From assembly GCA_001823925.1 (NCBI GenBank), contig MHWB01000013.1:9338-73337 (forward strand): a DNA stretch of 64,000 nt, in the 5' to 3' direction. Made by a program: the position numbers and the translations under genes. The DNA is from Candidatus Zambryskibacteria bacterium RIFCSPLOWO2_01_FULL_39_39 (GTDB taxonomy: Bacteria > Patescibacteriota > Minisyncoccia > Phycocordibacterales > WO2-35-19). Of the stretch, positions 1,278-59,370 are shown piece after piece (position 1 is the first letter of the stretch; each line of letters starts with the position of its first letter). Below the pieces are notes generated by a model. The model ran no database searches. It was not told where the DNA came from and saw only the letters and a program-made list of their open reading frames with translations.

Positions 1278-3580
1278 CTCCTTCCTATTTTTTTAGGCTC
1301 TTTTAATATTTCGAGAGCGCGTTCTAGAGTTATTTTATATACATCGTCTGTTTTGAGAGAACGAAAATCTTTTTGGTGGACGATATATGGTCCAAACCTG
1401 CCAATATTGGCAGAGATCATTTCTCCTGTTTCTGGCTGTGGCCCAAGCTCTCTTGGTAAACTCAAATATTTGAGTGCTTCATCCAAAGTAACACTATTTG
1501 GATCTTTATCTTTGGGGATACTTGATCTCCTTGGTTTTTCTTTCTTTTCTTTTTTAGTTTTTTCTTTTGGATTTGGTGCTTCGGATTTTGAATTTTGTCC
1601 CCCCAACTGTACATAAGGCCCAAACCTACCGTCCATTATAAAAACCGGAAGCCCTGTTGCACTGTCAACTCCAATAGGTTCTGCTTCCTTTATTTCAGAA
1701 CCGTCAATATTTCGCATACCCTTGCAATCTGGAAATTTTTCGCAACTCAAAAATTTGCCTCCCTTACCGAGCTTGATTATCATACCTGCGCCACAGATGG
1801 GGCATTTAAGTTTGGGATCGGCGTCTCCTAGGTTAGTGAGTTTGGCCGTCTTTTCCTTTTCTTTTACATCTTTCAAAAATGGTTTATAAAATTCTCGCAG
1901 AGTTGGTTCGTACTCTCTTTTACCTTCTGCAATTTGGTCAAGTTCATCTTCCATTTCGGCAGTGAAGGTGTCGCTTATATAATTTTCAAAATTATTTTCT
2001 AAAAATGTTGAGACGACATCGCCGGTGTCTGTCGGTTTAAGTGTCCGACCATCTTTATCTACATAACCTCTATCTATGATGGTACCGATGATAGAAGCAT
2101 AGGTGCTAGGTCTGCCAATACCCCTTTTTTCCAATTCTTTGATGAGCCCAGCTTCGCTATATCTGTTTGGTGGTTCGGTCTGTTTTTCTTCTTGTTTTAA
2201 ATCTAATAAGGAAAGATTATCTCCTTGTTTAACTTTTGGCAACAAGGTATCCTCACTCTTTGCTTCTGGGTCAGCCATGAGCCAGCCACTTTTTATAACT
2301 CGGGAGCCATTGGCTGCAAAATCTGGGACGGTGGCAATGTCAAAGACGGGCTTTTTGGAAATTTCTTCAAAGCCCGTCTTTGACATTGCGGACACCTGCG
2401 CCGTTATCTTGGTACGCATCATCAAGGCATCTTGCATTTGGGAGGCGACAGCTCTCTGCCATATCAGTTGGTACAACTTCTTTTGATCATCATTTGCGCC
2501 AGCATTCTCTTTTTCAAAATGAGTGGGCCTTATCGCTTCGTGAGCCTCCTGGGCATTTTTGGATTTAGTTTTATAAGTGCGAATTTGGTGAAGTTCTGCT
2601 CCAAATTTTTTTGTTACCACACTTTTTATTTGCCCCAATGCTACAGTCGCCATATTTAAACTATCAGTACGCATATAGGTGATGTGTCCAGCTTCATAAA
2701 GTTTTTGAGCCACCATCATCGTCCGCTTAGGACTAAACCCTAGTCTAGTACTTGCTACTTGTTGTAAAGTAGAGGTGGTAAAAGGGGCTTTGGGCGCTCT
2801 CTTTACTTCGGTCTCGGTCACATCTTTGACAGACCAAACTCCTTCTTTGGCTACATTATAAATTTTATCCGCCTCAATTTTTGTTTTTGGTTCTTCCTCG
2901 CAAAAAGCAGTGAAGGTAGCAATGTCAAGGGCGGGCTTTGAAGAAATTTCCAAAAAGCCCGCCCTTGACATTGCACCCACTTTCAAATTTGCAGAAATAA
3001 CGAAAAATGTCTCTGGTTTGAAAGCTCGTATCTCTCGCTCTTTTTCCATTAGTATTCGCAAAGCTGGGGATTGAACTCGGCCAGCCGAAAGACCGTATCT
3101 GACTTTTTTCCAAATAAGTCCCGATAAGTCATATCCCACCAGTCTATCAAGCACCCTTCTGGCTTCTTGGGCCTTTCTCAAATTTTGATCAATACTTCTG
3201 GGGTGTTTGAGAGCTTCCTCGATCGCTTCCTTGGTAATTTCGTGATAAGTAACTCTGCTAATCTTTTTCTTGCTTCCAAAATCATCTTTAATTATTTCAG
3301 CCAAGTGCCAAGCGATAGCCTCACCTTCTCGGTCGGGGTCGGTCGCGAGCAAAACTTCATCTGCCTTTTTTACAAGAGCTTTTATCTCTGCGACCACCTT
3401 TTCTTTACCCTTTGAAATTTCATAGTGGGGGATAAAGCCACCTTCTATGTCGATGGCTTTTTTATTACTTTTTGGCAGATCACGAATATGGCCGACGCTA
3501 GCTACAACCTCGTATTCACTTCCTATATATTTGCCAATAGTTTTTGCTTTGGCAGGGGATTCTACAATTAATAATTTCAT
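1262..3580 (-). CDS. topA: DNA topoisomerase I
   Basis: 772 aa; N-terminal TOPRIM MKLLIVESPAKAKTIGKYIG, C-terminal Zn-ribbon CPICGAGMII...CEKFPDC; carries two in-frame palindromic insertions (see repeats). Confidence 0.9.
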   Translation of the reverse strand: MKLLIVESPAKAKTIGKYIGSEYEVVASVGHIRDLPKSNKKAIDIEGGFIPHYEISKGKEKVVAEIKALVKKADEVLLATDPDREGEAIAWHLAEIIKDDFGSKKKISRVTYHEITKEAIEEALKHPRSIDQNLRKAQEARRVLDRLVGYDLSGLIWKKVRYGLSAGRVQSPALRILMEKEREIRAFKPETFFVISANLKVGAMSRAGFLEISSKPALDIATFTAFCEEEPKTKIEADKIYNVAKEGVWSVKDVTETEVKRAPKAPFTTSTLQQVASTRLGFSPKRTMMVAQKLYEAGHITYMRTDSLNMATVALGQIKSVVTKKFGAELHQIRTYKTKSKNAQEAHEAIRPTHFEKENAGANDDQKKLYQLIWQRAVASQMQDALMMRTKITAQVSAMSKTGFEEISKKPVFDIATVPDFAANGSRVIKSGWLMADPEAKSEDTLLPKVKQGDNLSLLDLKQEEKQTEPPNRYSEAGLIKELEKRGIGRPSTYASIIGTIIDRGYVDKDGRTLKPTDTGDVVSTFLENNFENYISDTFTAEMEDELDQIAEGKREYEPTLREFYKPFLKDVKEKEKTAKLTNLGDADPKLKCPICGAGMIIKLGKGGKFLSCEKFPDCKGMRNIDGSEIKEAEPIGVDSATGLPVFIMDGRFGPYVQLGGQNSKSEAPNPKEKTKKEKKEKPRRSSIPKDKDPNSVTLDEALKYLSLPRELGPQPETGEMISANIGRFGPYIVHQKDFRSLKTDDVYKITLERALEILKEPKKIGRRWKKT
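2335..2388. repeat. 54-bp palindromic element (TGTCAAAG stem) inserted in frame in topA, encodes MSKTGFEEISKKPVFDIAT
   Basis: tgtcaaagacgggcttt / aaagcccgtctttgaca perfect 17-bp stems around loop ttggaaatttcttcaa. Confidence 0.7.
2920..2973. repeat. Second copy of same palindromic element in topA, opposite orientation, encodes MSRAGFLEISSKPALDIAT
   Basis: tgtcaagggcgggcttt / aaagcccgcccttgaca stems; loop is reverse complement of loop of copy at 2335. Confidence 0.7.
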
Positions 3581-3688
3581 GACACGACACTAATTACGAA
3601 TAAGGAACGAATGACACAAATAAATTAAGAATAATAGGATAAGGATATGTTATAAAAATAAAAAAAGCAAAAATACCTCACCCCCCAA

Positions 3689-3714
3689 CCCCTCTCCTAG
3701 ATGTAGGAGAGGGG
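3689..3714. repeat. GC-rich hairpin cccctctcct-agatgt-aggagagggg (possible bidirectional terminator between topA and flp-like gene)
   Basis: perfect 10-bp inverted repeat in AT-rich intergenic DNA; member of CCCTC..GAGGG hairpin family. Confidence 0.5.
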
Positions 3715-3807
3715 AGGAAAATAATAAATTTGTAAATAAAAAACCACCCCATGGAGATCTGTGTGCCGTGTCGGCTCACAAATCTCCACGAGGTCGGCTG
3801 TTTTCCG

Positions 3808-4251
3808 TTACATCCCATCGTTTCTGTCGTTCTCAGCCCGCTCCTTCCGGCGCAGGACGATCAAACTAAGGAAAAGTGCTGCCAGAATGGCGGCTCCTAC
3901 TCTCACGATAAGCGTAGGTATGTCTCGCAGAGACAAAATTTTACCCACAATCGGGGTAACTGTTTCTGCCACTGAGCCGAAGGTTACCACGACGGCGACG
4001 GCGACAAAGCCGGCCATCAATGCGTATTCAACCAGATCCTGACCGCGAGTGTCCGCGGACATCGACCTGAAAAAGTCGTTGGTTGACCGGCAGATCACGC
4101 GTCGCCGGTAGTAAATCAAGAGTCCCGCCACAAAAATCAGCGGGAACACAACAACAAACAAAAGACCCATACCCATAACGTAACGCCTCCTATCCACAAG
4201 TATAGCATAGTTGGCACTTCCTGTCAAGATGTCAAGGTTCGACCTTGACAT
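3808..4251 (-). CDS. Flp/Fap-family type IVb pilin-like protein (true start probably internal GTG near 4130)
   Basis: Motif RGQDLVEYALMAGFVAVAVVV matches Flp prepilin G/xxxxEY cleavage motif plus hydrophobic helix; lies in a ~450-bp segment of markedly higher GC than flanks. Confidence 0.45.
   Translation of the reverse strand: MSRSNLDILTGSANYAILVDRRRYVMGMGLLFVVVFPLIFVAGLLIYYRRRVICRSTNDFFRSMSADTRGQDLVEYALMAGFVAVAVVVTFGSVAETVTPIVGKILSLRDIPTLIVRVGAAILAALFLSLIVLRRKERAENDRNDGM
4229..4251. repeat. Short palindrome atgtcaagg-ttcga-ccttgacat flanked by tgtcaag direct repeats
   Basis: perfect 9-bp stems; same TGTCAAGG family as 11970. Confidence 0.6.
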
Positions 4252-4255
4252 TGTG

Positions 4256-5146
4256 TCAAGAAAGCCTTATTTCACCGAGAGTTTCTTTGATGAGGCACTT
4301 GAGTTCCAAAAGAGAGAGTAGAGTTTGGGTTTCGCCGACTGATATCTGGTGTTCCAGATTTGCCTGTCTCAAAATCTCATCGCGTGGCAATGGTTCTATC
4401 AAAAGTTTTATAATGAGCATTTCTTTTTCCGAACAATCAAAATATTTTTCCTCGTCACTCTGAGACTTTGCGGAAGCAGACTCATCATTTTCCAAATGCA
4501 ACGCTTCCAATAAGTCGTCACTGTCCCTTATTGGTGTGGCTCCAAGACGAATGAGCATATGAGGACCTTGGCTTGTGGTATTAAAAATACTGCCAGGTAG
4601 AGCTAAGACATCTCTATTATATTCGGTCGCTAATCGCGCAGTGATTAAAGTACCTGACTTTTTTTCTGCTTCTATCACCAATGTGGCATGGCTCATACCA
4701 GCCATAATCCTATTTCTTTGAGGGAAGCTCCATTGGGTTGCTTTGAATTCTGAATCAAATTCGTTTAAGAGTGTGCCGCCTTTTTCTACGATTTCCTCTG
4801 CCAGACGAGTATGTGACTGAGGGTGTAAGACATCTAATGAAAGTCCCGAGCCGGGCACGGCGATGGTGGGCAAGTTGTTTTTGAGGGCGGCTCTATGAGC
4901 GATAGAGTCAATGCCTAAAGCCAGACCGGAAACGATAGTAATGGGATAATTTTTCAAACCTTCTATAAAAGTTTCGACCGCCTCCTTTCCATAACTTGTG
5001 TTTTTGCGAGCGCCGACTATGCACAAAAGCTTCCTCTCCCAGTCTGGTATTTTGCCCACATAAAGCAGTTTTTTTGGTAGTTGATTGATTTCTTCCAAGA
5101 GTGGCGGCCAATCTTTTCTCTCTAATTTTTTGATTTCATATTTCAT
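4256..5146 (-). CDS. dprA: DNA processing protein DprA (Smf)
   Basis: 296 aa; Rossmann-like DprA core LCIVGARKNTSYGKEAVE...SGLALGIDSIAHRAAL... Confidence 0.85.
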   Translation of the reverse strand: MKYEIKKLERKDWPPLLEEINQLPKKLLYVGKIPDWERKLLCIVGARKNTSYGKEAVETFIEGLKNYPITIVSGLALGIDSIAHRAALKNNLPTIAVPGSGLSLDVLHPQSHTRLAEEIVEKGGTLLNEFDSEFKATQWSFPQRNRIMAGMSHATLVIEAEKKSGTLITARLATEYNRDVLALPGSIFNTTSQGPHMLIRLGATPIRDSDDLLEALHLENDESASAKSQSDEEKYFDCSEKEMLIIKLLIEPLPRDEILRQANLEHQISVGETQTLLSLLELKCLIKETLGEIRLS

Positions 5147-5193
5147 CTTTTTTAAGCACTCGCATTTATTGTATCATTTGTTATTATTTAAAC

Positions 5194-6474: not shown

Positions 6475-6495
6475 CACCCTCGCGCTACGCGTCGA

Positions 6496-6516
6496 CCCCT
6501 CTTATATTAAGAGGGG
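6496..6516. repeat. GC hairpin cccctctta-tat-taagagggg after serS (possible left end of DUF559 element)
   Basis: perfect 9-bp inverted repeat; near-identical hairpin at 7252. Confidence 0.5.
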
Positions 6517-6539
6517 TAAAAACAAAAATAATAAAAAAT

Positions 6540-11287: not shown

Positions 11288-12355
11288 ATGAATTTTTGGA
11301 ATGAAATGAAAAAGCCGATACTTTGTCTCGCGCCATTAGCAGATGTTACTGATGTGGCTTTTAGGCATATTATTGCTAAATATTCGAAAGAAATGTCAAA
11401 GGGCGCCTTCGAAATGCCCCGGTCCCAGAAGGCGCCCTTTGACATTTCTACCTACGTTACTTATACCGAATTTGTTTCGGCCGATGGACTTGTTTTGGCT
11501 CCGGAAACAGGTAGGAGAAGACTCTTAAAAGATTTGGAATATTCTGAAATAGAAAGGCCGATCGTGGCACAACTTTTTAGCAGTAATCCAGAGAATATGA
11601 AAAAAGTTGCTTCTCTTGTTATGGAATTAGGTTTTGATGGTGTAGATATAAATATGGGTTGTCCCGATAAAAGTGTAGAGAAGCAGGGAGCTGGTGCCGC
11701 CCTTATAAAGAACCCAAAGCTTGCAAGAGAAATAATAAGATATGCAAAGACAGGTATAAAAGAAGCAGCAGAGAGGCTGGGTAAAGAAGAAATACCGCTG
11801 TCAGTAAAAACCAGACTTGGTTATAACGATGATGAGTTAGAAAGTTGGTTGCCAGAATTATTGGCGGAAAATCCGGCAGCTATTATTATCCATGCTCGCA
11901 CAAGGAAAGAAATGTCTAAAGTCCCTGCTCGTTGGGAGCGTATCAGACGTGCCGTTGAGATAAGGGATGAAGTGTCAAGGTTCAACCTTGACACTCAAAA
12001 AACTTTAATAATTGGTAATGGAGATGTTTTAGATGTTGCAGATGCAATAAAAAAATGTGAAGAGAGTGGCGCAGACGGGGCCATGCTCGGGAGAGCAGTT
12101 TTTGGCAATCCTTGGCTCTTTTCTACCCACGTGCCGACCGCTTCCGAAAAATTAAAAGTCTTGCTGGAACATATTAAACTTTTTGAAGAAAAATTGGGTG
12201 GGGTAAAAAATTTTGCTGTTATGAAAAAACATTTCAAAGCTTACCTTTCTGGTTTTCCTGTTGGTAGTGATTTTAGACTAAAAGAATTAAGAGATAGGCT
12301 CATGCAAACAAAGGACGCTAAAGATGCGGAGATTTTGTTAAGCGAATACTTATAA
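11288..12355 (+). CDS. dusB: tRNA-dihydrouridine synthase (DusB-like) carrying two in-frame palindromic insertions
   Basis: 355 aa; LAPLADVTDVAFRHI...YTEFVSADGL...DINMGCPDK...IHARTR...GNGDV motifs of Dus family. Confidence 0.8.
   Translation: MNFWNEMKKPILCLAPLADVTDVAFRHIIAKYSKEMSKGAFEMPRSQKAPFDISTYVTYTEFVSADGLVLAPETGRRRLLKDLEYSEIERPIVAQLFSSNPENMKKVASLVMELGFDGVDINMGCPDKSVEKQGAGAALIKNPKLAREIIRYAKTGIKEAAERLGKEEIPLSVKTRLGYNDDELESWLPELLAENPAAIIIHARTRKEMSKVPARWERIRRAVEIRDEVSRFNLDTQKTLIIGNGDVLDVADAIKKCEESGADGAMLGRAVFGNPWLFSTHVPTASEKLKVLLEHIKLFEEKLGGVKNFAVMKKHFKAYLSGFPVGSDFRLKELRDRLMQTKDAKDAEILLSEYL
11391..11447. repeat. 57-bp palindromic element in dusB (20-bp perfect stems aaatgtcaaagggcgccttc, loop gaaatgccccggtccca), encodes MSKGAFEMPRSQKAPFDIS
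   Basis: insertion sits where Dus family has short KYG-to-TEMVSA linker; loop shared with elements at 21781 and 25994. Confidence 0.7.
11970..11994. repeat. Short palindrome agtgtcaagg-ttcaa-ccttgacact inside dusB (encodes VSRFNLDT)
   Basis: perfect 10-bp stems; family member of 4229 copy. Confidence 0.6.
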
Positions 12356-20229: not shown

Positions 20230-22224
20230 CTATAACAAATTATCTGGATCTGTCTTAATCTCAAAGTGGGGAGGTAAAGATTTTAAAATAGAAAAAAGAG
20301 CAGAATCTACCCATTTTTCTTTGGGTATTTTAATGACGGCATTTATGGCAGATTGCTCACCCCTTTTTTCATGAATGGATGGGAAAATGGTGGCGCTATA
20401 ATTTTTATTTTCGGAATTTTCAAACACATTCTTCAACACTTGAGTTTCTTTTCCGACAAAACTTTTAGTGCCTCTCACTGTTATTTTTATAAAAATACTA
20501 AAAGGTGGGTAACTTAAAACCGCGCGATCCTCTATTTCCTTTTTATAAAATTCTATTAAATTGCCACTTCTTGCAAATTCTACAGTTGAATCTTTTGGGT
20601 TTCTGGTCTGTATCAAAAGGTTTTCTTTGGCTATACTTTTGGTTTGTAAAATAAGACGGAAAATTTTTTCTCTGATACGAAAATCAGGAATAGAGAATAG
20701 GGAATCAAAAGAACAAATAGCACTACTTCCCACTTTTTTATAAATATAAGAGAGAGCCATCTCGGTACCCAAAAGTATTGAGCCTTTATTTTCATAAAAG
20801 TTTTTGATTACATTTAAGGCTTTGGCGTTTGTTTCAACAATATCTTTGTGTAATTCAAAAAGATTTATGTTTGGGACACTCTTTCTTAATTCTTCGGCTA
20901 CTCTGTCAATACCAGAACCAAATGCCGCAAGCTTCCAGCTGTGACAATTTTGACAAACTTCTGCCGCGTCTCGTGTTTCGCCACATTGATGACATTTAAA
21001 AACGGCGCCATTTTGGGTACTTTGGTCCGGAGATGTTTTAGTTTTATATAAGATCATAGGAGATGAGCAGTTGAAACATTTTACCTGTTCTCCGCAGTCA
21101 CGGCAGACAGTAACCGACGATAAGCCTTTTCTAGCCGCAAATATAAACATATTAGAACCTTTTTCTATGGTTTTTTTGATTAAATTTAGTAATTCTGGCG
21201 ATATGGTTTTGAATTCTTTTCCTTGCCCCAATTCTTTCAAGTCTATTATGGTCGTTTTGATTTCAAGAGGCATTCGCCATTTGACGTTTTCAAATTCAGA
21301 TACTTCCCCTTGTTTGTATCTGTATAAAGTTTCTATTCTCAAAAAAGAATCTCCAATCACGGTACGGATATTTTTTTTATTAGCCAAAATTTCAGCAAAA
21401 AATCGAAGGTCTATAAAAGGTCGCGATAAAGTTTTCCAACCAGTTTCATTTTCTTTATCTATAATAATGGTGCCGAAATCTAATCTTGGCAAAAATAACC
21501 ATTTGGCTGTGGCTATAATTAATACAGGATGCTTTGTTTCGCATGCCCTTTTCCATTCCTTGATTAAATCCTTTTTCTTCATTTCATTATGAAAAGTGCA
21601 GACAAAGGATTCTATACCACGTTCTAGTTTTTCCTGAGTTTTTCGCACGTTTTCATTTTGAGGTAAGCATAGAAAAACTGATTTTTTCTTAGCAAATTCT
21701 TCCCTGATAAGAGATTTATAAAGATCTAATCTTTCCTCGTTTGGAGCTTGTAAGATAGCAATTTCATTTTTAATACTGTCGTTGCCAAGGACAGTCCTTA
21801 AACTGCCCCGGTCCCAAAGGACTGTCCTTGGCAACTGAAGCAAGTTTGGGTTTTCTAAAATGAAAGAAGGAATAAGTTGGGGAATAATATTGCCTTCTGT
21901 GGCGACAAAATATTTGGCCGTCTCTCTCACCGCTTCCAAGAATTTTTTTTGTAAAAATGGTTTAGCAGTTACGGCTGAAATTTTTTTTAATTGAAAATTT
22001 GCGGATTTTATAGAAAGTTTTGCCTCTGTCACGTCCTTACTTTCTAAAACCAAAGCTGAAACACTTTTTCCTCTAATGTTTATTTTTAACAAAGAACCGG
22101 GCTCTAAATATTTAGGTCCAAAATATGACAGTGACTCTTTACTCAAACCTTTTGAAAGTGGTAGACATTCTATGATAAACATATGCTTTAAGTAAAAAGC
22201 AAAAAGCCTAAAGTAGCAAGTCAT
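20230..22224 (-). CDS. priA: Primosomal protein N' (PriA helicase) with in-frame palindromic insertion
   Basis: 664 aa; helicase core plus Cys4-Cys4 zinc module CRDCGEQVKCFNC...CHQCGE...CQNCHS. Confidence 0.85.
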   Translation of the reverse strand: MTCYFRLFAFYLKHMFIIECLPLSKGLSKESLSYFGPKYLEPGSLLKINIRGKSVSALVLESKDVTEAKLSIKSANFQLKKISAVTAKPFLQKKFLEAVRETAKYFVATEGNIIPQLIPSFILENPNLLQLPRTVLWDRGSLRTVLGNDSIKNEIAILQAPNEERLDLYKSLIREEFAKKKSVFLCLPQNENVRKTQEKLERGIESFVCTFHNEMKKKDLIKEWKRACETKHPVLIIATAKWLFLPRLDFGTIIIDKENETGWKTLSRPFIDLRFFAEILANKKNIRTVIGDSFLRIETLYRYKQGEVSEFENVKWRMPLEIKTTIIDLKELGQGKEFKTISPELLNLIKKTIEKGSNMFIFAARKGLSSVTVCRDCGEQVKCFNCSSPMILYKTKTSPDQSTQNGAVFKCHQCGETRDAAEVCQNCHSWKLAAFGSGIDRVAEELRKSVPNINLFELHKDIVETNAKALNVIKNFYENKGSILLGTEMALSYIYKKVGSSAICSFDSLFSIPDFRIREKIFRLILQTKSIAKENLLIQTRNPKDSTVEFARSGNLIEFYKKEIEDRAVLSYPPFSIFIKITVRGTKSFVGKETQVLKNVFENSENKNYSATIFPSIHEKRGEQSAINAVIKIPKEKWVDSALFSILKSLPPHFEIKTDPDNLL
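21781..21835. repeat. 55-bp palindromic element in priA (stems ttgccaaggacagtcctt, loop aaactgccccggtccca) encoding LPRTVLWDRGSLRTVLGN
   Basis: near-identical to intergenic copy 25994-26048. Confidence 0.75.
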
Positions 22225-22257
22225 CTAAATCACTAATTTTATGGTAAAATATCTATT

Positions 22258-23028
22258 ATGAATTTATCTTTTGATAAAAAACTAGCAGATAATTATACAA
22301 GTCAATCTCAAAAAATCAGAGTTTTAACTGAAGATTGGGTTGATAATCAAATTTTTTGCCCAAATTGTGGACATCTTAATATAGATAAATATGAAAATAA
22401 TAAACCAGTCGCCGATTTCTTCTGTTCAAATTGTAAGGAAGATTATGAATTAAAAAGTAAAAAAGAAACAATTGGCAATAAACTTGTTGATGGTGCATAC
22501 CACACGATGATTGAAAGATTGCAAAGTAGTAATAACCCTAATTTTTTTCTTCTTAATTATGATTTACAAAATTTTGAGGTTTTAAATTTTTTTGTCATTC
22601 CAAAACATTTCTTTATTCCAGATATTATAGAAGAACGCAAAGCATTATCCCAAACAGCAAGGCGTGCTGGTTGGATTGGTTGTAATATTTTACTACAGAG
22701 CATTCCGCAAAGCGGAAAAATATTTTTTGTAAAAAATCGTCAAATTGAGTCAAAAGAAAAAATTCTCGCAAAATGGCAAAAAACGCTATTTCTCCGAAAA
22801 GAAAAAGAAATTAGTGCAAAAGGTTGGCTTTTAGATATAATTAATTGTATTGAAAAATTAAAAAATAAAGAATTTACCATTGATGAAATTTATGTTTTTG
22901 AAAGTTTTTTATCCAAAAAACATCCTGAAAACAAATATATCAAAGACAAAATTCGTCAACAACTACAGATTTTGAGGGATAGGGGGTATTTATATTTTAT
23001 TAGCAGAGGAATTTATAAAATAAAATGA
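22258..23028 (+). CDS. DpnI-like Type IIM (methyl-directed, G-m6A-TC) restriction endonuclease / Dam-replacing protein family
   Basis: 256 aa; segments SQSQKIRVLTEDWV, CPNCGH, KPVADFFCSNC, ELKSKK, DGAYHTM, NNPNFFLL, RRAGWIGCNI, KIRQQLQILRDRGY match my recollection of DpnI/DRP family. Confidence 0.6.
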   Translation: MNLSFDKKLADNYTSQSQKIRVLTEDWVDNQIFCPNCGHLNIDKYENNKPVADFFCSNCKEDYELKSKKETIGNKLVDGAYHTMIERLQSSNNPNFFLLNYDLQNFEVLNFFVIPKHFFIPDIIEERKALSQTARRAGWIGCNILLQSIPQSGKIFFVKNRQIESKEKILAKWQKTLFLRKEKEISAKGWLLDIINCIEKLKNKEFTIDEIYVFESFLSKKHPENKYIKDKIRQQLQILRDRGYLYFISRGIYKIK

Positions 23029-23189
23029 CAATAAAAAAATTTATCAAAAAATTAGAAAGAATTGTAAAGGAACATGGACCATCTCTTGAGGTGAAAATGG
23101 CAGATGATATACCAGTAGTTAGTCCTGTTTGTACGAGAGATTTTATGGATAAAAAGGTGGTTGTCATAACAGATCAAGAAGGAGATGGA
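23025..23189 (+). CDS. Small hypothetical protein (54 aa) translationally coupled to DpnI-like gene (ATGA overlap)
   Basis: ORF MTIKKFIKKLERIVKEHGPSLEVKMADDIPVVSPVCTRDFMDKKVVVITDQEGDG read from sequence; below ORF-track length cutoff. Confidence 0.3.
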
Positions 23190-23226
23190 TAGGTTAGAGC
23201 TAAAATTTTAAAAAGTTACAGGTTCT

Positions 23227-23442
23227 GTGGATGAGAAACTGCAAACCTGTGATTTTAAGAAGAAACAATTTCGGAAACTTTTTGCAACTCTTAATATTGA
23301 AATTGAGTACATTTATATTCTAGGAGATTGGTTTAAATTACCAAAATATAAAGATGTTCTTGATTACGTCATCTCTGTTGGTTGTCAGTATTATTTTGGA
23401 TATTTACCTTTGCAAAAATTGGGGTTGCCTGTACCTAAATAA
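23227..23442 (+). CDS. Hypothetical protein
   Basis: 71 aa ORF in very AT-rich accessory segment. Confidence 0.25.
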   Translation: MDEKLQTCDFKKKQFRKLFATLNIEIEYIYILGDWFKLPKYKDVLDYVISVGCQYYFGYLPLQKLGLPVPK

Positions 23443-23445
23443 AAA

Positions 23446-24237
23446 ATGTCAGCGAAGAATTTAATAAAATGGTTGAAGAAATTAAAAATAAATAAAGAAA
23501 AATTACCAATTCTTCTTAGGATATTTGAGATAATTATTTTATTTTTAGTTCCTATTGTTTTCTATATAGCATGGTTTATATCTGAATATGAAGAGGTACA
23601 CATATTCAGCAATCTAGAAGTGATTGGAAATAAACTAACTTTTAATAACCGGCAAGAAATGATGGCTTTAAAAGATTCTATGTATGAAAATACAAAAAAT
23701 GATTTCCCAGTACAATTCTCAAAACAAAAAATTTCTGATTTTGATAACTTCAAATCACAAGTTTCTGAAAGGTTCATTGAGGAACTTAGTGTATTTTCAT
23801 CACTTCCTATTCATAGGGCATGTTTAATCAACAAAAACGAAATATTTATACTAGGCAATCTACAAGAAAATATTGGCCTTTCAACGGGGGGAGCTGCTAT
23901 AAACCAAAAAGATGGCTATAATTTCTATGCAGAGAGAAATGGTGAAGATTGCAAAAATATTTCCATAAGCAAATTTAGAGAAAGCCCATCTAGAGCAGAA
24001 TACGCATATCCTTTTACTACGATCATGAGCCAAGAAGAAGGTGTAAAATTCCAAAATGGAGAAAAATTTACGGCAGATATAGCAACTTCTTCTGTAATTG
24101 CTTCCGATACGATAATTAAAATCCGCCTAAATTATTGGACATTTGTTATTTTTTATTTTATCGTTCTTCCTGCATGGTCGGTTATCTTTTTTCAGTACAA
24201 GAAAATCTCTAGCTACTTAAAAAATCCCAGCAATTAA
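23446..24237 (+). CDS. Hypothetical membrane protein (N- and C-terminal TM helices)
   Basis: 263 aa; no recognised motif. Confidence 0.4.
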   Translation: MSAKNLIKWLKKLKINKEKLPILLRIFEIIILFLVPIVFYIAWFISEYEEVHIFSNLEVIGNKLTFNNRQEMMALKDSMYENTKNDFPVQFSKQKISDFDNFKSQVSERFIEELSVFSSLPIHRACLINKNEIFILGNLQENIGLSTGGAAINQKDGYNFYAERNGEDCKNISISKFRESPSRAEYAYPFTTIMSQEEGVKFQNGEKFTADIATSSVIASDTIIKIRLNYWTFVIFYFIVLPAWSVIFFQYKKISSYLKNPSN

Positions 24238-24345
24238 ACAAGTTTCAACTTCGTACTAGATGGCCAGCATTTATTTCATACAAAGATTGTGGCAGAGATT
24301 TGAAGTATTCTCAAGATTGCCGATTAGACGACTTCCTTGTAGTAT

Positions 24346-25365
24346 TTGGATATGTCATTTTTTTCTAAAAAATTGGGTATTGATTTGGGAACGGCCAACA
24401 CTCTGGTTTTTGTGCCGGGTAAGGGTGTAGTTTTAAACGAGCCTTCGGTGGTGGCTATTTCCCTTGAAGATAATAAAATTTTAGCAGTTGGTAATGAAGC
24501 AAAAATAATGATAGGCCGGACTCCTAAAGCTATTGTGGCTTATAGACCAATGAAAGATGGGGTAATCGCCGATTATAAAGTTACGGAAGCAATGCTTTCT
24601 TATTATATGAAAAAAGCTATGGGTGGCTGGGGTTTTATAAAACCAGAAGTGCTGATTAGTGTGCCAGCCGGAGTCACTTCTACCGAAAGAAGGGCGGTAA
24701 TAGAAGCGGCTATAAAAGCGGGGGCCAAGAATGCTTATGTCGTCAAAGAGCCCATTTTGGCGGCTATTGGAGCTGGTATCCCTATATATGAAGCCAGGGG
24801 ACATATGGTTGCTGATATTGGTGGGGGTACCACGGATGTGGCAGTGATCTCTTTGGGTGGTATTGTTTCAGCCACTTCGGTCAAATGTGCTGGTAACAAA
24901 ATTGACGAAAGTATAATTGATTACATCAAAAAAACTTTTAATTTGGCCATTGGAGATAAAACAGCGGAAGATATAAAAGTTAAAATAGGATCGGCATTAC
25001 CCATAGATGAAGAGCTTGTCATATCTATAAAAGGTAGAGATTTTATTTCAGGGCTCCCTAGATCAGTTGAAATCAAAACTAACGAAATAGTCAAAGCTAT
25101 TTCACGAGAACTTCGAGAGATAATAAAAGCGATCAAAGATGTCTTGCAAGAAACCCCACCCGAACTCGCTGCCGATATAATGGACCATGGTATTATCATG
25201 ACCGGAGGGACTTCCGCTCTCAGAAATCTTCCTGAACTGATCTTTAGAAGAGTTGGGGTAAAAGCAATCCTTGCAGAAAATCCTCTTTACTGCGTTGCAG
25301 AGGGTACTGGTATTGCTTTGGAACATTTGGGTGCCTACAAAAGAGTGGTGGCCTCTAAAAGATAA
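24346..25365 (+). CDS. mreB: Rod shape-determining protein MreB (paralog 1)
   Basis: 339 aa; actin-fold motifs GIDLGTANT, DIGGGTTDVAV, MTGGTS. Confidence 0.85.
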   Translation: MDMSFFSKKLGIDLGTANTLVFVPGKGVVLNEPSVVAISLEDNKILAVGNEAKIMIGRTPKAIVAYRPMKDGVIADYKVTEAMLSYYMKKAMGGWGFIKPEVLISVPAGVTSTERRAVIEAAIKAGAKNAYVVKEPILAAIGAGIPIYEARGHMVADIGGGTTDVAVISLGGIVSATSVKCAGNKIDESIIDYIKKTFNLAIGDKTAEDIKVKIGSALPIDEELVISIKGRDFISGLPRSVEIKTNEIVKAISRELREIIKAIKDVLQETPPELAADIMDHGIIMTGGTSALRNLPELIFRRVGVKAILAENPLYCVAEGTGIALEHLGAYKRVVASKR

Positions 25366-25373
25366 AATAAAAA

Positions 25374-25991
25374 ATGCATCACGCCAATATCATAATAAGC
25401 AGAGAAGATTGTCGGGATTATGTTTTTGATATTTTAGAAAAAGATTTAAATTTTAATATTAAAGCCAACCCCGATTTTTTGCTTGTAGAAACAGAATCTT
25501 TCAGTATAGATCATGCCAGGGATCTGATAAAATGGTCTATTGGCAAAGCCCTAGTGGGTGAAATAAAAGTTTCCTTGATTATCGTAAAATCTATAACCTT
25601 AGAAGCTCAAAATGCTCTGCTTAAAATTTTGGAAGAATCACCAGAAGGCACTTTTATTTTTATTAGTTTAGAAAATTTGGGGGGAATTTTGCCCACACTT
25701 GTTTCAAGAGTCAGGATTTTAAATTTACACAAGGAAGTTAACAATTTGGAAGATGATGCCCAAAAGTTTTTCTCTTCCAAGATTAAAGACAAACTTTCTG
25801 TCATACGCACTCTTTCAAAAAAAGAAGACAAGAGTGATATAAAAGAACTTATAAAAAATTTAGAGCAAATAGCTTATCAAAATAAGGCGTCGGCAAATCA
25901 TATAAAAAACGTATTAACCGCAAAGATTTTTGCTAGTACCAGGGGGTCTTCCCCCAAGATGCTTTTAGAATGGTTATCAGCCGTGTTATAA
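25374..25991 (+). CDS. holB: DNA polymerase III delta-prime-like subunit (short, no P-loop)
   Basis: 205 aa; QNALLKILEESPEGTFIFISLENLGGILPTLVSRVR resembles HolB sensor region. Confidence 0.55.
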   Translation: MHHANIIISREDCRDYVFDILEKDLNFNIKANPDFLLVETESFSIDHARDLIKWSIGKALVGEIKVSLIIVKSITLEAQNALLKILEESPEGTFIFISLENLGGILPTLVSRVRILNLHKEVNNLEDDAQKFFSSKIKDKLSVIRTLSKKEDKSDIKELIKNLEQIAYQNKASANHIKNVLTAKIFASTRGSSPKMLLEWLSAVL

Positions 25992-25993
25992 TA

Positions 25994-26048
25994 GTTGCCA
26001 AGGACAGTCCTTAAAATGCCCCGGTCCCAAAGGACTGTCCTTGGCAAC
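25994..26048. repeat. Intergenic copy of 55-bp palindromic element (holB-frr spacer)
   Basis: ttgccaaggacagtccttaaaatgccccggtcccaaaggactgtccttggcaa; 1 nt different from priA copy. Confidence 0.75.
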
Positions 26049-26052
26049 TTAA

Positions 26053-26601
26053 ATGTTTGATTTTTCGGAATTAAAAATAAAAAGCAAAGACATAGAAAAC
26101 TGGCTTAGCAAAGAGCTTTCGGTTATTCGTACTGGCAGAGCTACCCCGGTTATTCTTGATTTTGTACAAGTAGAAGCTTATGGCTCAAAGATGTCTATCA
26201 AAGAATTGGCCAATATTTTAGTGGAAGACGCTAAGACGGTGAGAATAGAGCCGTGGGATTTGAGCGTTGGCAGAAGTATTGAAAAGGCAATAGGTTCTTC
26301 CAACTTAGGACTTTCTGTTGCCCCATTTGAAAAAGGGTTAAGAATTATTTTTCCCGAGCTAACTGCCGAAAGAAGAGAGCAGTTTGTCAAAGTGGTTGGT
26401 AAACAACTTGAAGAGGCCAAAGTATCACTGCGAAATCTACGTGATAAAACTTGGAAGGCGATTGAAGAAAAAGAAAAATCTGGTGGTATGGGTGAAGACG
26501 ATAAGTTTAGAATGAAAGAAGAAATGCAGAAGATAATAGATGATACAAGTAGAAAGCTGGAAGAGTCGGCAGATAAAAAAGAGAAGGAGATAAAGATTTA
26601 A
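26053..26601 (+). CDS. frr: Ribosome recycling factor
   Basis: 182 aa; typical Frr sequence LSVIRTGRATPVILDFVQVEAYG. Confidence 0.9.
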   Translation: MFDFSELKIKSKDIENWLSKELSVIRTGRATPVILDFVQVEAYGSKMSIKELANILVEDAKTVRIEPWDLSVGRSIEKAIGSSNLGLSVAPFEKGLRIIFPELTAERREQFVKVVGKQLEEAKVSLRNLRDKTWKAIEEKEKSGGMGEDDKFRMKEEMQKIIDDTSRKLEESADKKEKEIKI

Positions 26602-42831: not shown

Positions 42832-42892
42832 TTTGCCCCTTACCTTAGACAAGGTGAGGGGCAGTTCCGCTTTAGCGGAACGGGGTGGGGTC
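42832..42892. repeat. Structured GC-rich element: ccccttacctt-agac-aaggtgagggg + cag + gttccgc-ttta-gcggaac + ggggtggggtc
   Basis: same two-hairpin architecture and conserved single-stranded tracts as element at 55089-55140, with compensatory changes in second stem. Confidence 0.5.
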
Positions 42893-42923
42893 TGAAAAGA
42901 TGGGATAAAACTTTGAAGGTGAC

Positions 42924-42977
42924 CTTTTGGAGCAGGGGACAGTTTAAAGGTCACCTTCTCAAAAAAATTTGCTATAA
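42924..42977 (+). promoter_or_regulatory. 13-bp inverted repeat gaaggtgaccttt/aaaggtcaccttc followed by TATAAT (-10), upstream of T4CP-like gene
   Basis: perfect IR with 18-nt loop at 42924-42967, -10 hexamer at 42972-42977, ATG at 42987. Confidence 0.35.
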
Positions 42978-49155: not shown

Positions 49156-50778
49156 ATGTTTAAAATAGAGCAAAAAATCTCGAAGTCACTGGGTCGAGCT
49201 GGTGTTTTAATTACTCCACATGGGGAGGTACAAACACCTAGCTTTGTAGCTGTCGGTACTAAAGCAACGGTCAAATCTCTCTCACCCGAACAGGTCAAAG
49301 AGGCTGGGTCGCAAATAGTTTTGGCCAATACCTATCATCTTTATTTAGAACCCGGAGAAAAAATTGTGAAAGAAGCGGGGGGCTTGGGTAAGTTTATGAA
49401 TTGGCAAGGTCCAACTATGACAGACTCGGGCGGTTTTCAAGCTTTTTCTTTGGGGGTGGCTTATGGAAGTAAGCTTAGTAAATTTATTGGCAATGAGTCT
49501 CCAAAACAAGAAGAGATAGACGAAGCTTATAGAGAAGAGCGAGATAAGAAAGCAAAGATTACCGAAGATGGGGTGGAATTTAAATCTATTATAGATGGTA
49601 GCAAACATTTTTTTACTCCAGAAAAATCAATGCAAATTCAAAGTGACCTAGGAGCTGATATTATTTTTGCTTTTGATGAGTGTACTTCACCACATGCACC
49701 CAAGGAGTATTTGAAGGAAGCTTTGGCGCGGACTCATCGTTGGGCAGAAAGGTGTTTGATTGAATACAGAAAAAATCACCCCACCCCGACCCTCCCCGAA
49801 GGGGAGGGTGCCCAAAGGGGAACTTTCGGTTATCACACAACAGATTCGGTTACTTGGAAAAATCTTCAACAAAGAGTTTTAGAAATGAGAGAAAAACCTA
49901 CTCCCGCTGAAAATATGCTATGGCAACATTTAAGAAAAAATTCAACAAAATATCATTTTAGAAGACAACATATAGTGGGAAATTTTATTGTTGATTTTGT
50001 TTGCCTAGAAAAATCATTAGTAATTGAAGTTGATGGAGATATCCATGATTACCAAAAGGAAGAAGATAAATCCAGAACAGAGTTTTTAAATAAATTAGGT
50101 TTTTATATTTTAAGATTTAAGAACGAAGAGGTAGTAGAGAATATTTTAAAAGTATTAGAGGGTATAAAGGTTGGTCTTAAAGCCCTCCCCTTTGGGGAGG
50201 GTTTGGGTGGGGTTTCTTCCCAAGCTCTCTTTGGCATAGTCCAAGGTGGCAGGTATGAAGATTTGAGGAAAGAAAGCGCTAAGGTGATAGGAGAGATGGA
50301 TTTTGATGGTTTTGGCATTGGAGGCTCCTTTGTTAAAGAAGATATGGCGACAGCGGTCAAATGGGTGAGTGGAATTTTGCCAACTGATAAACCTAGGCAT
50401 CTTTTGGGGGTGGGAGAGCCTGTTGACATTATTTTTGGTGTTGAAAACGGATGCGACACATTTGACTGTGTCGCCGCGACACGTATGGCGCGCAATGGCA
50501 CACTCTATACCAAACGAGGTAAAATAAATATCAACAACGCCAAGTATAAAAATATTTTTGAGCCGATTGAAGAGGGGTGCAAGTGTTATACTTGTAAAAA
50601 TTATACCTGTTGCTACCTTTCCCACCTTTTTCGCTCCAAAGAAATGTTGGCCGCTACTTTAGCATCTATTCATAATCTTTATTTTATAAATTCTCTGGTT
50701 GCAGAGATGAGAGAATCAATTTTAAACGAAAATTTTTTTGATTTTAAAGAAAATTTTTTAAGAGATTATAAAGTTTAG
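49156..50778 (+). CDS. tgt: Queuine tRNA-ribosyltransferase carrying an in-frame ~145-aa insertion that contains a DUF559 endonuclease domain
   Basis: 540 aa; TGT N-terminal (LITPHGEVQTPSFVAVGT, LANTYHL, TDSGGFQ), then insertion between ERCLIEYRKN and QALFGIVQGG, then zinc site CKCYTCKNYTCCYLSH. Confidence 0.8.
   Translation: MFKIEQKISKSLGRAGVLITPHGEVQTPSFVAVGTKATVKSLSPEQVKEAGSQIVLANTYHLYLEPGEKIVKEAGGLGKFMNWQGPTMTDSGGFQAFSLGVAYGSKLSKFIGNESPKQEEIDEAYREERDKKAKITEDGVEFKSIIDGSKHFFTPEKSMQIQSDLGADIIFAFDECTSPHAPKEYLKEALARTHRWAERCLIEYRKNHPTPTLPEGEGAQRGTFGYHTTDSVTWKNLQQRVLEMREKPTPAENMLWQHLRKNSTKYHFRRQHIVGNFIVDFVCLEKSLVIEVDGDIHDYQKEEDKSRTEFLNKLGFYILRFKNEEVVENILKVLEGIKVGLKALPFGEGLGGVSSQALFGIVQGGRYEDLRKESAKVIGEMDFDGFGIGGSFVKEDMATAVKWVSGILPTDKPRHLLGVGEPVDIIFGVENGCDTFDCVAATRMARNGTLYTKRGKININNAKYKNIFEPIEEGCKCYTCKNYTCCYLSHLFRSKEMLAATLASIHNLYFINSLVAEMRESILNENFFDFKENFLRDYKV
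49777..50212 (+). mobile_element. DUF559-encoding insertion element with ~35-bp GC-rich hairpin terminal inverted repeats, integrated in frame within tgt
   Basis: left end accccaccccgaccctccccgaaggggaggg is approx reverse complement of right end ccctcccctttggggagggtttgggtggggt; internal 49915-50160 encodes MLWQHLRKNSTKYHFRRQHIVGNFIVDFVCLEKSLVIEVDGDIH...LRFKNEEV (DUF559). Confidence 0.55.
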
Positions 50779-55088: not shown

Positions 55089-55140
55089 TTTTTCCCTTCA
55101 CCTTCGCAAGGTGAGGGGCAGTTTTCCGTAAGGAAAACGA
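55089..55140. repeat. Second copy of structured GC-rich element: cccttcacctt-cgc-aaggtgagggg + cag + ttttccg-taa-ggaaaac + gaggtggggtc
   Basis: architecture and single-stranded tracts identical to 42832 element; second stem differs by compensatory substitutions. Confidence 0.5.
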
Positions 55141-55150
55141 GGTGGGGTCG

Positions 55151-59289: not shown

Positions 59290-59370
59290 AAGATTTCCCC
59301 CTTTCCTCCATAGTATGTCAAAAATCTACTTGAGATTTCTGAGGGGTATTATAACTAAGTGGATTATTTT

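What the first reader, a model, noticed from the sequence alone, without database searches (positions are those of the whole stretch)
21781..26048. Near-identical 55-bp palindromic element present once in frame in priA and once intergenic
The 21781-21835 copy lies inside priA and encodes LPRTVLWDRGSLRTVLGN. The 25994-26048 copy lies in the holB-frr spacer, ending 5 nt before the frr start codon. They differ at a single loop base. Near-identity implies recent mobility. The same unit is tolerated both inside an essential helicase and as a spacer element.
Basis: seen in the sequence. Interest (0 to 1): 0.7.

Follow-up and report, generated by a model that had tools for sequence, protein, structure and literature searches.

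The report
Translated REPIN-like hairpin repeats in CPR genes
The two near-identical 55-base palindromes are copies of a family of small hairpin-forming repeats, probably moved by a dedicated transposase, that in these tiny groundwater bacteria sit mostly inside housekeeping genes and are translated as short extra peptide loops.

Summary
Two 55-nt perfect palindromes differing at one loop base lie at 21781-21835 (in frame in a PriA-like gene) and at 25994-26048 (between holB and frr).

They are not a private pair. The window, from a Candidatus Zambryskibacteria MAG, holds at least six such doublets and two short singlets. Each doublet is two inverted copies of a short palindrome, TGYCAARG-N5-CYTTGRCA, around a conserved 14-17-nt linker.

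In 21 copies found by the linker alone, the arms differ but stay Watson-Crick complementary. About two thirds of copies are intragenic, open in the host frame, and read in five different frames.

In related Parcubacteria, the same short palindrome flanks a single-copy Y1 (IS200-like) transposase whose only NCBIfam match is 'REP-associated tyrosine transposase'. This is the REP/REPIN-RAYT arrangement.

Best explanation: REPIN-like non-autonomous elements that, unlike classical extragenic REPs, are tolerated in protein linkers, as Rickettsia RPEs are.

Both sites are anciently occupied in relatives by diverged family members. The near-identity therefore reflects recent copying or conversion between resident elements, not a first insertion.

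The RAYT of this genome itself was not seen.

The parts
21781..21835 (-). Type-A doublet: two inverted TTGCCAAGG-ACAGT-CCTT units around the 17-nt linker TGGGACCGGGGCAGTTT (as read on the minus strand). It is translated in frame as LPRTVLWDRGSLRTVLGN in the linker of the PriA-like protein.
25994..26048 (.). Type-A doublet, intergenic, with one linker base different. It fills the holB-frr spacer, starting 2 nt after the holB stop and ending 4 nt before the frr ATG.
20230..22224 (-). Host gene: PriA-like protein of 664 aa (the real start is probably M15). The element sits between the 3'BD domain and the helicase-like core. Walker A and DExH motifs are degenerate.
25374..25991 (+). holB-like gene (DNA_pol3_delta2) upstream of the intergenic copy. 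In relatives L060, L071, L068 and L074 its own linker carries a family member; here it is empty.
26053..26601 (+). frr (ribosome recycling factor) immediately downstream of the intergenic copy.
11388..11449 (+). Family member with the same 17-nt linker but different arms (GAAATGTCAAAG-GGCGC-CTTC). It is in frame in the dihydrouridine synthase gene, read as EMSKGAFEMPRSQKAPFDIS, and is a net insertion of about 20 aa relative to PDB 1VHN.
2334..2389 (-). Family member with a 14-nt linker (TTGGAAATTTCTTC) and arms GCAATGTCAAAG-ACGGG-CTTT, in frame in topA. At the same site, the relative L034 has the same outer ends but a different N5 and the 17-nt linker.
2919..2974 (-). Second topA copy. The linker is inverted relative to 2334, and the arms differ at two positions, both compensated in the partner arm.
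42912..42961 (.). Degenerate intergenic family member: GAAGGTGACCTTT-tggagcaggggacagttt-AAAGGTCACCTTC.
4230..4250 (.). Singlet (short form) TGTCAAGGTTCGACCTTGACA, at the junction of two minus-strand ORFs.
11973..11993 (+). Singlet TGTCAAGGTTCAACCTTGACA, in frame in dus. The L062 ortholog has TGTCAAAGGGCATCTTTGACA at the same codon positions.

Best explanation
The two 55-mers are REPIN-like elements. Each is an inverted doublet of a short REP-type palindrome (TGYCAARG-N5-CYTTGRCA) joined by a conserved linker. They belong to a REP/RAYT-type system of Parcubacteria (CPR).

Inferred mechanism:
- A single-copy, RAYT-like Y1 HUH transposase, itself flanked by the cognate short palindrome, recognises the folded hairpin on single-stranded DNA.
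- It copies or moves the hairpin without target-site duplication.
- Copies are also reshuffled by exchange between family members at already occupied sites, and their linkers can flip.

Because the unit is stop-free in four of six frames, insertions in variable inter-domain linkers of proteins survive and are translated. In PriA this gives 18 extra residues. Other copies sit in spacers.

The priA and holB-frr copies of this genome are recent products of the same arm-variant (N5 = ACAGT).

Shown here: the family architecture, the covariation, the occupancy patterns, and the association of RAYT genes with the palindrome in related genomes.

Inferred, not shown: catalysis by the RAYT, a RAYT in this genome, and whether copying was by conversion or by re-insertion.
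For: (1) Family size. The window holds 5 strict doublets and 2 singlets, against 0.005 expected, plus a degenerate sixth doublet.

(2) Linker-only ascertainment. A metagenome scan with the linker pattern alone returned 25 loci. About 20 of them carry palindromic arms of differing sequence around the same linker.

(3) Covariation on those 21 copies.
- 91% of cells are paired.
- 14 of 19 pairs show changes on both sides.
- 84 cells are changed on both sides, against 27.9 +/- 4.1 in shuffles (0 of 500 shuffles reach this).
- Slid controls give 26-55% pairing.
- Single-sided (G:T-type) states are almost absent, which points to DNA-level symmetry.

(4) Coding context. 21 of 32 copies are intragenic and open in the host frame, and five different frames are used. 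The linker variant GTTC rather than GTTT occurs exactly in the frame where GTTT would create TAA.

(5) RAYT link.
- The 17-mer arm search hit L003 and L033. There, TGTCAAGGAC(A/T)GTCCTTGACA directly flanks both ends of a 206-219-aa ORF.
- That ORF matches Pfam Y1_Tnp (E 4.7e-10, above the cutoff). Its only NCBIfam match is NF047646, 'REP-associated tyrosine transposase' (E 6e-17, below the equivalog cutoff).
- It has 1514 homologues, several named RayT by JGI, including ones from Zambryskibacteria.
- Every RAYT locus examined whole (L003, L033, L076, L077, L034, L048, L049, L061) is flanked on both sides by a cognate short palindrome.
- In L069, the 3' end of the RAYT carries 14 nt identical to an arm of the PriA doublet on the same contig.

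(6) The same N5 variants (ACAGT, TCAGA, GCAAC, GTCAC, ACGCC, GCGAC and others) recur at unrelated sites in different genomes and combine with different linkers.

(7) Pairs with identical arms lie close together in three genomes: W 4.2 kb, L060 1.9 kb, L058 0.8 kb.

(8) No target-site duplication is seen at clean filled-versus-empty comparisons. This is as expected for Y1/IS200-type single-strand transposition, according to the literature (PMC6006769, PMC3116915).
Against: - No Y1 transposase is encoded in the 64-kb window (tblastn; Pfam on 40 ORFs). The rest of this assembly could not be read, so a RAYT flanked by the ACAGT variant in this genome is a prediction.
- The RAYT homologues score below NCBIfam's equivalog cutoff and match E. 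coli TnpA-REP (4ER8) only at E = 0.75.
- The elements lack the GTAG/CGTC tags of classical REPs.
- Exact arm-variants are low-copy: 2 in the window, and 1 in the genome represented by L017. Classical REPIN families have tens to hundreds of near-identical copies.
- Classical REPs are extragenic.
- At PriA and TopA the left boundary is identical across genomes while the interior differs. This fits conversion between copies at least as well as transposition.
- RAYT-driven REPIN movement has not been reconstituted in vivo for any system.
Confidence: 0.72

Rival explanations
1. These are selfish palindromic elements of the Rickettsia-RPE or mitochondrial-GC-cluster type. On this reading they have no dedicated transposase and spread and homogenise only through host recombination, or through template switching at hairpins. 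The nearby RAYT palindromes would then be just further copies.
For: - Interiors are swapped within fixed outer boundaries at PriA (W vs L075) and at TopA site B (W vs L034).
- The linker is inverted at the orthologous holB-frr site (W vs L059).
- Identical-arm pairs are always close together.
- No transposase is present in the window.
- The symmetry is DNA-level, with no G:T states. Repair of hairpin mismatches would also produce this.
Against: - The short homologies involved (9-nt feet, 17-nt linker) are poor substrates for RecA-type conversion.
- This reading does not explain why all eight RAYT genes examined whole are bracketed on both sides by the short palindrome, with a variant specific to each genome.
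- It also does not explain why feet and linker stay conserved across genomes in five reading frames.
Confidence: 0.17
2. The hairpins are host-functional cis elements, for example mRNA stabilisers, attenuators, translational-coupling devices, protein-binding or DNA-uptake sites. On this reading they are conserved for that function rather than through mobility.
For: - The holB-frr spacer copy is retained in five related genomes, exactly between a stop and a start codon.
- The linker sequence is strongly conserved.
- REPs in E. coli are known to affect mRNA stability (background knowledge).
Against: - About two thirds of copies are inside coding sequences of unrelated genes, in both orientations and in five frames.
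- Occupancy of any one site is patchy among close relatives.
- Many copies are visibly decaying (L059, L060, L044, L053).
- There is no T-tract for termination.
- There is no Rfam match.
- The absence of G:U-type pairs argues against selection on an RNA helix.
- The density, about 1 per 10 kb, is far below that of uptake sequences.
Confidence: 0.07
3. The two copies are an assembly or chimera artefact, or a chance palindrome pair.
For: Contigs in this lineage often break inside these repeats: L034 ends in one, and P0123 starts in one.
Against: - The sequence is identical in independent assemblies and samples.
- Orthologous copies occur in other genomes.
- 0 of 100 shuffles give a match.
Confidence: 0.01

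Closest known systems
REPINs / REP-BIME elements with RAYT (TnpA-REP) transposases of Pseudomonas and Enterobacteria (Bertels & Rainey 2011, PMC3116915; PMC5581495; PMC6006769)
   Same: - An inverted doublet of a short palindrome forms a long hairpin.
- Compensatory changes occur across the hairpin.
- Singlets occur as apparent remnants.
- A single-copy Y1 HUH transposase gene is flanked by the cognate palindromes.
- The transposase gene sits at a syntenic position (next to gyrA in L003, L033, L076 and L077).
- Elements persist at orthologous sites.
- A conserved inter-REP linker is present, as in BIME linker motifs.
   Different: - Most copies here are intragenic and translated; classical REPs are by definition extragenic.
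- There is no GTAG or CGTC tag.
- The unit is shorter (about 55 nt, against about 70-110 nt).
- The linker is more conserved than the arm core (N5), the reverse of SBW25 REPINs.
- Each exact variant is low-copy.
- The transposase is only distantly related (61.9 bits against an NCBIfam cutoff of 80).
- The host is a CPR/Patescibacteria lineage, which the RAYT surveys consulted here do not mention.
Rickettsia palindromic elements (RPE; Ogata et al. 2000, from background knowledge; mentioned in PMC10969869 and PMC1779305)
   Same: - Palindromic repeats are inserted in frame in housekeeping protein genes of a small, AT-rich genome.
- They are translated as extra surface or linker peptides.
- They are also found in non-coding DNA.
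   Different: - RPEs are about 100-150 bp and unrelated in sequence.
- No transposase partner is known for them.
- Here a candidate RAYT partner exists, and the element has a doublet/singlet architecture.
GC-rich palindromic clusters and double-hairpin or repetitive hairpin elements of fungal and sponge mitochondria (PMC4478555, PMC2800124)
   Same: GC-rich hairpins scattered in an AT-rich genome, sometimes inside coding regions. They recur at the same sites and carry modular variants.
   Different: The genomes are organellar, the sequences are unrelated, and no Y1 transposase association is known.
IS200/IS605-derived PATEs and classical MITEs (e.g. Correia elements)
   Same: Non-autonomous and hairpin-forming, and mobilised in trans. 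The Y1-type elements leave no target duplication.
   Different: The elements here have no terminal inverted repeats with target-site duplication as in MITEs. They are not derived from the ends of a multi-copy IS, and the transposase gene appears to be single-copy and syntenic.

Membership tests
REPIN / REP-RAYT system | The unit is a short (about 20-40 nt) imperfect palindrome repeated in the genome. | tested here: met
   The TGYCAARG-N5-CYTTGRCA unit occurs as singlets (4230, 11973) and as the arms of the doublets. The window holds 5 doublets and 2 singlets against 0.005 expected.
REPIN / REP-RAYT system | [quoted passage not shown] | tested here: met
   dG is -22 to -30 kcal/mol. 14 of 19 pairs covary, and 91% of cells are paired in 21 copies ascertained by the linker alone.
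REPIN / REP-RAYT system | A RAYT (Y1 HUH) gene flanked by the cognate palindromes in the same genome. | not testable with these tools
   Met in related genomes: L003, L033, L076, L077, L034, L048, L049 and L061, and partly in L069. No RAYT is present in the 64-kb window. The rest of assembly GCA_001825295.1 could not be fetched.
REPIN / REP-RAYT system | High copy number of a near-identical 16-mer across the genome. | tested here: inconclusive
   The family as a whole occurs about once per 10 kb in the window. However, the exact type-A 17-mer occurs in only 2 elements here, and in 1 element in the representative genome behind L017.
REPIN / REP-RAYT system | Extragenic location. | tested here: not met
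   21 of 32 copies lie inside long ORFs and are open in the host frame. In the window, 4 of the 5 strict doublets are intragenic.
REPIN / REP-RAYT system | A 5' GTAG or CGTC tag (Di Nocera 2013, PMC3733652). | tested here: not met
   The feet read (A/T)TG(T/C)C ... G(A/G)CA(A/T). No GTAG or CGTC is present.
REP-associated tyrosine transposase (NCBIfam NF047646) | Score above the curated equivalog cutoff (80 bits). | tested here: not met
   Scores are 41-62 bits. This is the only family matched. Pfam Y1_Tnp is matched above its cutoff. HxH and YxxxNP motifs are visible in the sequences.
Rickettsia palindromic elements | A palindromic repeat inserted in frame in protein-coding genes and translated. 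| tested here: met
   Seen in PriA, Dus, TopA (twice), and in relatives ValRS (L017) and HolB, among others. Translation itself is inferred from the intact frames.
Rickettsia palindromic elements | Sequence or size relationship to RPE-1 to RPE-8 (about 100-150 bp, Rickettsia). | not tested
The size (55 nt) and the host differ.
MITE | Terminal inverted repeats with a target-site duplication. | tested here: not met
   No duplication appears at filled versus empty holB-frr spacers, or at any of the flanks compared.

The most novel reading that the evidence does not exclude
Parcubacteria (CPR) may carry an undescribed branch of REPIN-RAYT systems with these properties:
- Its hairpin doublets have become 'coding-compatible': stop-free and roughly a multiple of 3 in length (doublet minus singlet is 30 nt).
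- They live mainly inside the inter-domain linkers of housekeeping proteins such as PriA, HolB, TopA, Dus and ValRS.
- A fixed set of 'landing pads' is repeatedly overwritten with new arm and linker modules.

On this reading, a domesticated single-strand transposase would be continuously rewriting short peptide segments of essential proteins in ultra-small genomes.
Probability: 0.5. Interest if true: 0.7.

Novelty: new variant of a known kind. Interest (0 to 1): 0.6.

Why it matters
REP/REPIN elements are the textbook 'extragenic' repeats. Rickettsia RPEs are the textbook in-frame selfish DNA, with no known mobilising enzyme. This family joins the two: a REPIN-like doublet with a candidate RAYT partner that is mostly intragenic and translated, in a phylum where neither has been described in the literature I could search.

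It offers three things:
- A tractable test of how palindromic DNA enters coding sequence without destroying it.
- A practical explanation for contig breaks and for length variation of housekeeping proteins in CPR MAGs.
- A marker of recent intragenomic DNA transfer in organisms that cannot be cultured.

Tried and rejected
- Rfam, gathering thresholds, whole window: only two tRNAs.
- Viral contigs: no linker pattern, no REP and no RAYT relative.
- Literature: searches for palindromic elements in CPR, Patescibacteria or Parcubacteria genes found nothing relevant.
- Transposase in the window: none found by Pfam on 40 ORFs or by tblastn with the RAYT.
- Target-site duplication or a common target motif at the flanks: none seen.
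- Population polymorphism for the PriA copy: all five members of the 90% cluster carry it.
- DGR-type retrohoming was considered because L074 has a DGR in the holB-frr interval. I rejected it because the variation is compensated in both arms and is not adenine-specific.
- A restriction-modification recognition site or a DNA-uptake sequence: rejected on the discrete N5 variants and the low density.
- A protein-level selected linker module: rejected because the same DNA is read in five frames.
- Apparent enrichment of RAYT genes near linker-ascertained loci (L048/L065, L049, L061): discounted. These are orthologous copies of one locus, so they count as one event.
- Three DNA-search runs failed on pattern syntax and were replaced by a script.


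Full report
**1. Observation**

The two sequences are as described. The first, GTTGCCAAGGACAGTCCTT-AAACTGCCCCGGTCCCA-AAGGACTGTCCTTGGCAAC, lies at 21781-21835. The second lies at 25994-26048 and differs by a single C->A change in the loop. No shuffle of the window gives any match. Each copy has 19-nt perfectly complementary arms and a 17-nt loop, and folds as DNA at about -22.5 kcal/mol (z = -7.5 to -10).

- Copy 1 lies in ORF 20230..22224 (-). This ORF has a weak PriA 3'BD Pfam hit, 619 PriA homologues, and a helicase-like core alignable to PDB 4NL4/6DGD. In frame it reads LPRTVLWDRGSLRTVLGN.
- Copy 2 fills the spacer between a holB-like gene and frr. It starts 2 nt after the holB stop and ends 4 nt before the frr ATG.
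- The window is contig MHVP01000014.1 of GCA_001825295.1, a Rifle groundwater MAG. Sources name the PriA homologues Candidatus Zambryskibacteria.
- The element is present in independent assemblies and in all five members of the 90%-identity PriA cluster. It is therefore not an artefact.

**2. It is one variant of a family**

A hairpin scan of the window finds further GC-rich palindromes of the same build:
- 2334-2389 and 2919-2974, both in frame in topA;
- 11388-11449, in frame in a dihydrouridine synthase gene;
- 42912-42961, intergenic and degenerate.

The dus copy has entirely different arms but the same 17-nt loop as the reported element.

The general form is (A/T)TG(Y)CAARG-N5-CYTT-[linker]-AARG-N5'-CYTTG(R)CA(A/T). 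Each arm contains its own small palindrome, AARG-N5-CYTT. There are also 21-nt short forms, TGTCAAGG-N5-CCTTGACA, at 4230 and 11973. A pattern count gives 5 doublets and 2 singlets in the window, against 0.005 expected from Markov simulations.

**3. Conserved linker, covarying arms**

A metagenome scan with the linker alone (CCTT N0-1 TGGGACCGGGGCANTT) returned 25 loci. About 20 of them have arms of different sequence that are nevertheless complementary. On 21 such copies (A1):
- 91% of cells pair, against 26-55% when the partner columns are slid;
- 14 of 19 pairs show changes on both sides;
- 84 cells are changed on both sides, against 27.9 +/- 4.1 in shuffles (0 of 500 shuffles reach this).

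Single-sided (G:T/G:U) states are almost absent. This indicates Watson-Crick symmetry at the DNA level rather than selection on an RNA helix. Rfam has no match.

The N5 cores are not random. The same few variants (ACAGT, TCAGA, GCAAC, GTCAC/GTGAC, GCGAC, GGCAC, ACGCC) recur at unrelated sites in different contigs. They also combine with at least three linker types: a 17-nt G-rich linker and two 14-nt linkers.

**4. Coding context**

Of 32 copies examined, 21 lie inside long ORFs and are open in the host frame, 9 are intergenic and 2 are ambiguous. Five of the six possible frames are used:
- WDRGS,
- GTGAVQ,
- LGPGQF,
- EMPRSQ,
- KCPGPK.

No protein-level selection can therefore explain the conservation of the linker. 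Type A is stop-free in four of six frames. In the frame where ...GTTTAAGG would give TAA, the intragenic copies carry the GTTC variant (L017 ValRS, L046, L057).

The sites are variable linkers or loops:
- The PriA copy lies between the 3'BD domain and the helicase-like core.
- The dus copy is a net insertion of about 20 aa relative to 1VHN.
- The topA copies fall in poorly conserved stretches of the protein.

**5. Both reported sites are old**

Syntenic loci from relatives were fetched.

holB-frr spacer:
- It carries a family member in W (perfect), in L059/L063 (same N5, decayed feet, linker inverted relative to the flanks) and in L060 (decayed).
- It also carries one in L067 and in L069, where an adjacent remnant of a second copy is present.
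- It is 7 nt and empty in L071 and L072.
- No target duplication is visible.

PriA linker:
- It carries a doublet with the same left boundary (CCAAAYTTGCTKTCR|YTGYCAARG) in W, L060, L067, L068, L069, L071, L072, L073 and L075. These have different N5 cores, both linker orientations, and three linker types.
- On a neighbour-joining tree of 90 near-full-length sequences drawn from the 100-sequence PriA alignment, occupied and unoccupied linkers are interspersed among the closer relatives. Elements are absent from the more distant ones (about 60% identity or less).
- The closest PriA outside the cluster (P0070, 79% identity) has none.

The same pattern holds elsewhere:
- A HolB linker is occupied in L060, L071, L068 and L074 and empty in W.
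- At TopA site B, W and L034 (81% identical proteins) share the outer ends GCAATGTCAA...TTGRCATTGC but differ in N5 and in linker type.
- At Dus site 1, L062 holds an unrelated 21-bp-stem palindrome at the same codon.

Pairs with identical arms occur within one genome and close together: W priA/frr at 4.2 kb, L060 priA/holB at 1.9 kb, L058 at 0.8 kb. The ACAGT core at the frr-upstream site is shared by W, L059 and L067, so it looks ancestral there. The PriA copy of W most likely acquired the same sequence recently, either by conversion from the spacer copy (or from a third copy) or by re-insertion.

**6. The transposase link**

The genome-collection scan with the 17-nt arm hit two non-Zambryskibacteria Parcubacteria, L003 (Nomurabacteria) and L033 (Paceibacterota).
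- In both, the 21-nt singlet TGTCAAGGAC(A/T)GTCCTTGACA occurs two to three times. Two of these singlets bracket a 206-219-aa ORF next to gyrA.
- That ORF matches Pfam Y1_Tnp (E 4.7e-10, 40 bits against a cutoff of 23). Its only NCBIfam match is NF047646, 'REP-associated tyrosine transposase' (62 bits, below the cutoff of 80). HxH and YxxxNP motifs are visible in the sequence.
- It has 1514 homologues (E <= 1e-5). JGI annotates several as 'REP element-mobilizing transposase RayT', and they include Zambryskibacteria proteins.
- Two Zambryskibacteria loci, L076 and L077 (the latter a Rifle MAG), show the same gyrA-linked gene. It is bracketed by ATGTCAAGG-ACGGC-CCTTGACA in L076 and by TGTCAAGG-GTCAC-CCTTGACA in L077.
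- More distant paralogues in L034 and in L048/L049/L061 are bracketed by other short palindromes. One of these, TTCCTAAGG-N5-CCTTAGGAA, forms a doublet in L065.
- In L069, the 3' end of a RAYT fragment carries TCAAAGGTGCCCTTTGA. Fourteen of its nucleotides are identical to an arm of the PriA doublet 10 kb away on the same contig.

A single-copy Y1 gene flanked by its cognate short palindromes, with inverted doublets of those palindromes scattered in the genome, is the defining arrangement of REP/REPIN-RAYT systems. In those systems compensatory changes across the hairpin are common, and singlets are regarded as remnants (PMC3116915, PMC5581495; read).

**7. Mechanism, with status**

Shown here:
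- the architecture,
- DNA-level covariation,
- multi-frame translation compatibility,
- occupancy and turnover at orthologous sites,
- linker inversion,
- RAYT genes bracketed by the family's singlet in related genomes.

Inferred:
- The RAYT recognises the folded doublet on single-stranded DNA and copies it without target duplication, as proposed for REPINs and shown for IS200/IS605 relatives (PMC6006769).
- Copies in linkers of proteins survive because they are stop-free.
- Internal modules are exchanged between copies.
- The doublet-to-singlet change is a 30-nt, frame-preserving deletion between the two AARG-N5-CYTT direct repeats.

Not shown: a RAYT in this genome. None is encoded in the window, and the rest of the assembly could not be read.

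For the two reported copies:
- The PriA copy is simply an 18-residue linker insertion.
- The spacer copy may influence holB/frr coupling, but I have no evidence for or against this.

**8. Comparison and novelty**

The family works like REPINs/BIMEs, but it fails three classical REP criteria: it is not extragenic, it has no GTAG/CGTC tag, and exact variants are low-copy. Its transposase is only a distant RAYT relative. In its in-frame life-style it resembles Rickettsia RPEs, for which no enzyme is known.

I found no description of such elements in CPR in the searchable literature. I therefore rate it a new variant of a known kind, of moderate to good interest.

**9. Limits**

- Copy number per genome is extrapolated from 64 kb.
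- The tree is a quick neighbour-joining tree.
- Conversion and re-insertion cannot be separated with the present data.
- The apparent proximity of RAYT genes to linker-ascertained loci reduces to one orthologous locus and is not counted as evidence.

Noticed in passing
window 49156-50778 (inverted repeats at 49778-49808 and 50183-50213): The queuine tRNA-ribosyltransferase ORF is split by an in-frame DUF559/Vsr-like endonuclease domain (aa 236-339). The domain is bracketed by GC-rich inverted repeats (ACCCCACCCCGACCCTCCCCGAAGGGGAGGG). This looks like a second kind of mobile insertion inside a housekeeping gene.
   Followed up: no
window 20230-22224 (-): The PriA homologue, and all its close orthologues, have QAP(N/D)EER(L/F) where PriA has the Walker A GSGKT, and DKEN where it has DEEH. 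It is probably not an active ATPase or helicase.
   Followed up: partly
window 3686-3717, 6492-6520, 42832-42892, 55089-55149; also L071 5378-5404, L073 5319-5357 and 13172-13210: A second family of GC-rich hairpins, CCCCTCTCCTT-loop-AAGGAGAGGGG. It includes a 61-nt two-hairpin unit repeated at 42832 and 55089, mostly in intergenic positions.
   Followed up: no
window 22258-23028 (+): A DpnI-like methyl-directed restriction endonuclease gene lies between priA and mreB. Most syntenic relatives have priA and mreB adjacent; L073 also has it.
   Followed up: no
L074 4162-8171: In one relative, the holB-frr interval (the site of the intergenic copy) holds a diversity-generating retroelement: RVT_1, bAvd and a 607-aa ORF.
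   Followed up: no
L062 about 5120-5170 (dus site 1): At the codon where the window's dus carries its doublet, the L062 ortholog carries an unrelated perfect palindrome, AGCCCGAAGTCGGACATAGGG-cgaa-CCCTATGTCCGACTTCGGGCT. The same protein loop thus accepts different hairpin families.
   Followed up: partly
window 58000-62000: G+C rises to 0.45-0.52 against about 0.37 elsewhere. ORFs here have no or weak Pfam hits (HATPase_c_3). This may be foreign DNA.
   Followed up: no
window 42987-45743 (+); L076 4355-6271; L077 6384-8591: The window encodes a VirD4/TraG-like coupling-protein homologue, preceded by several hairpins. In L076 and L077, arrays of T4SS-pilin genes lie a few kb from the RAYT gene.
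   Followed up: no
window 4256-5146 (-), 52122-53168 (+), 54443-55081 (-): DprA, RmuC and RecR homologues are encoded in the window. In E. coli, RmuC is reported to limit inversions at short inverted repeats (background knowledge), which could bear on the linker flips.
   Followed up: no
L034 3900-3950; protein P0123: Contigs of this lineage end or start inside these elements: L034 stops in a type-A arm within topA, and P0123 begins at MPRTVL. The repeats therefore fragment MAG assemblies.
   Followed up: partly
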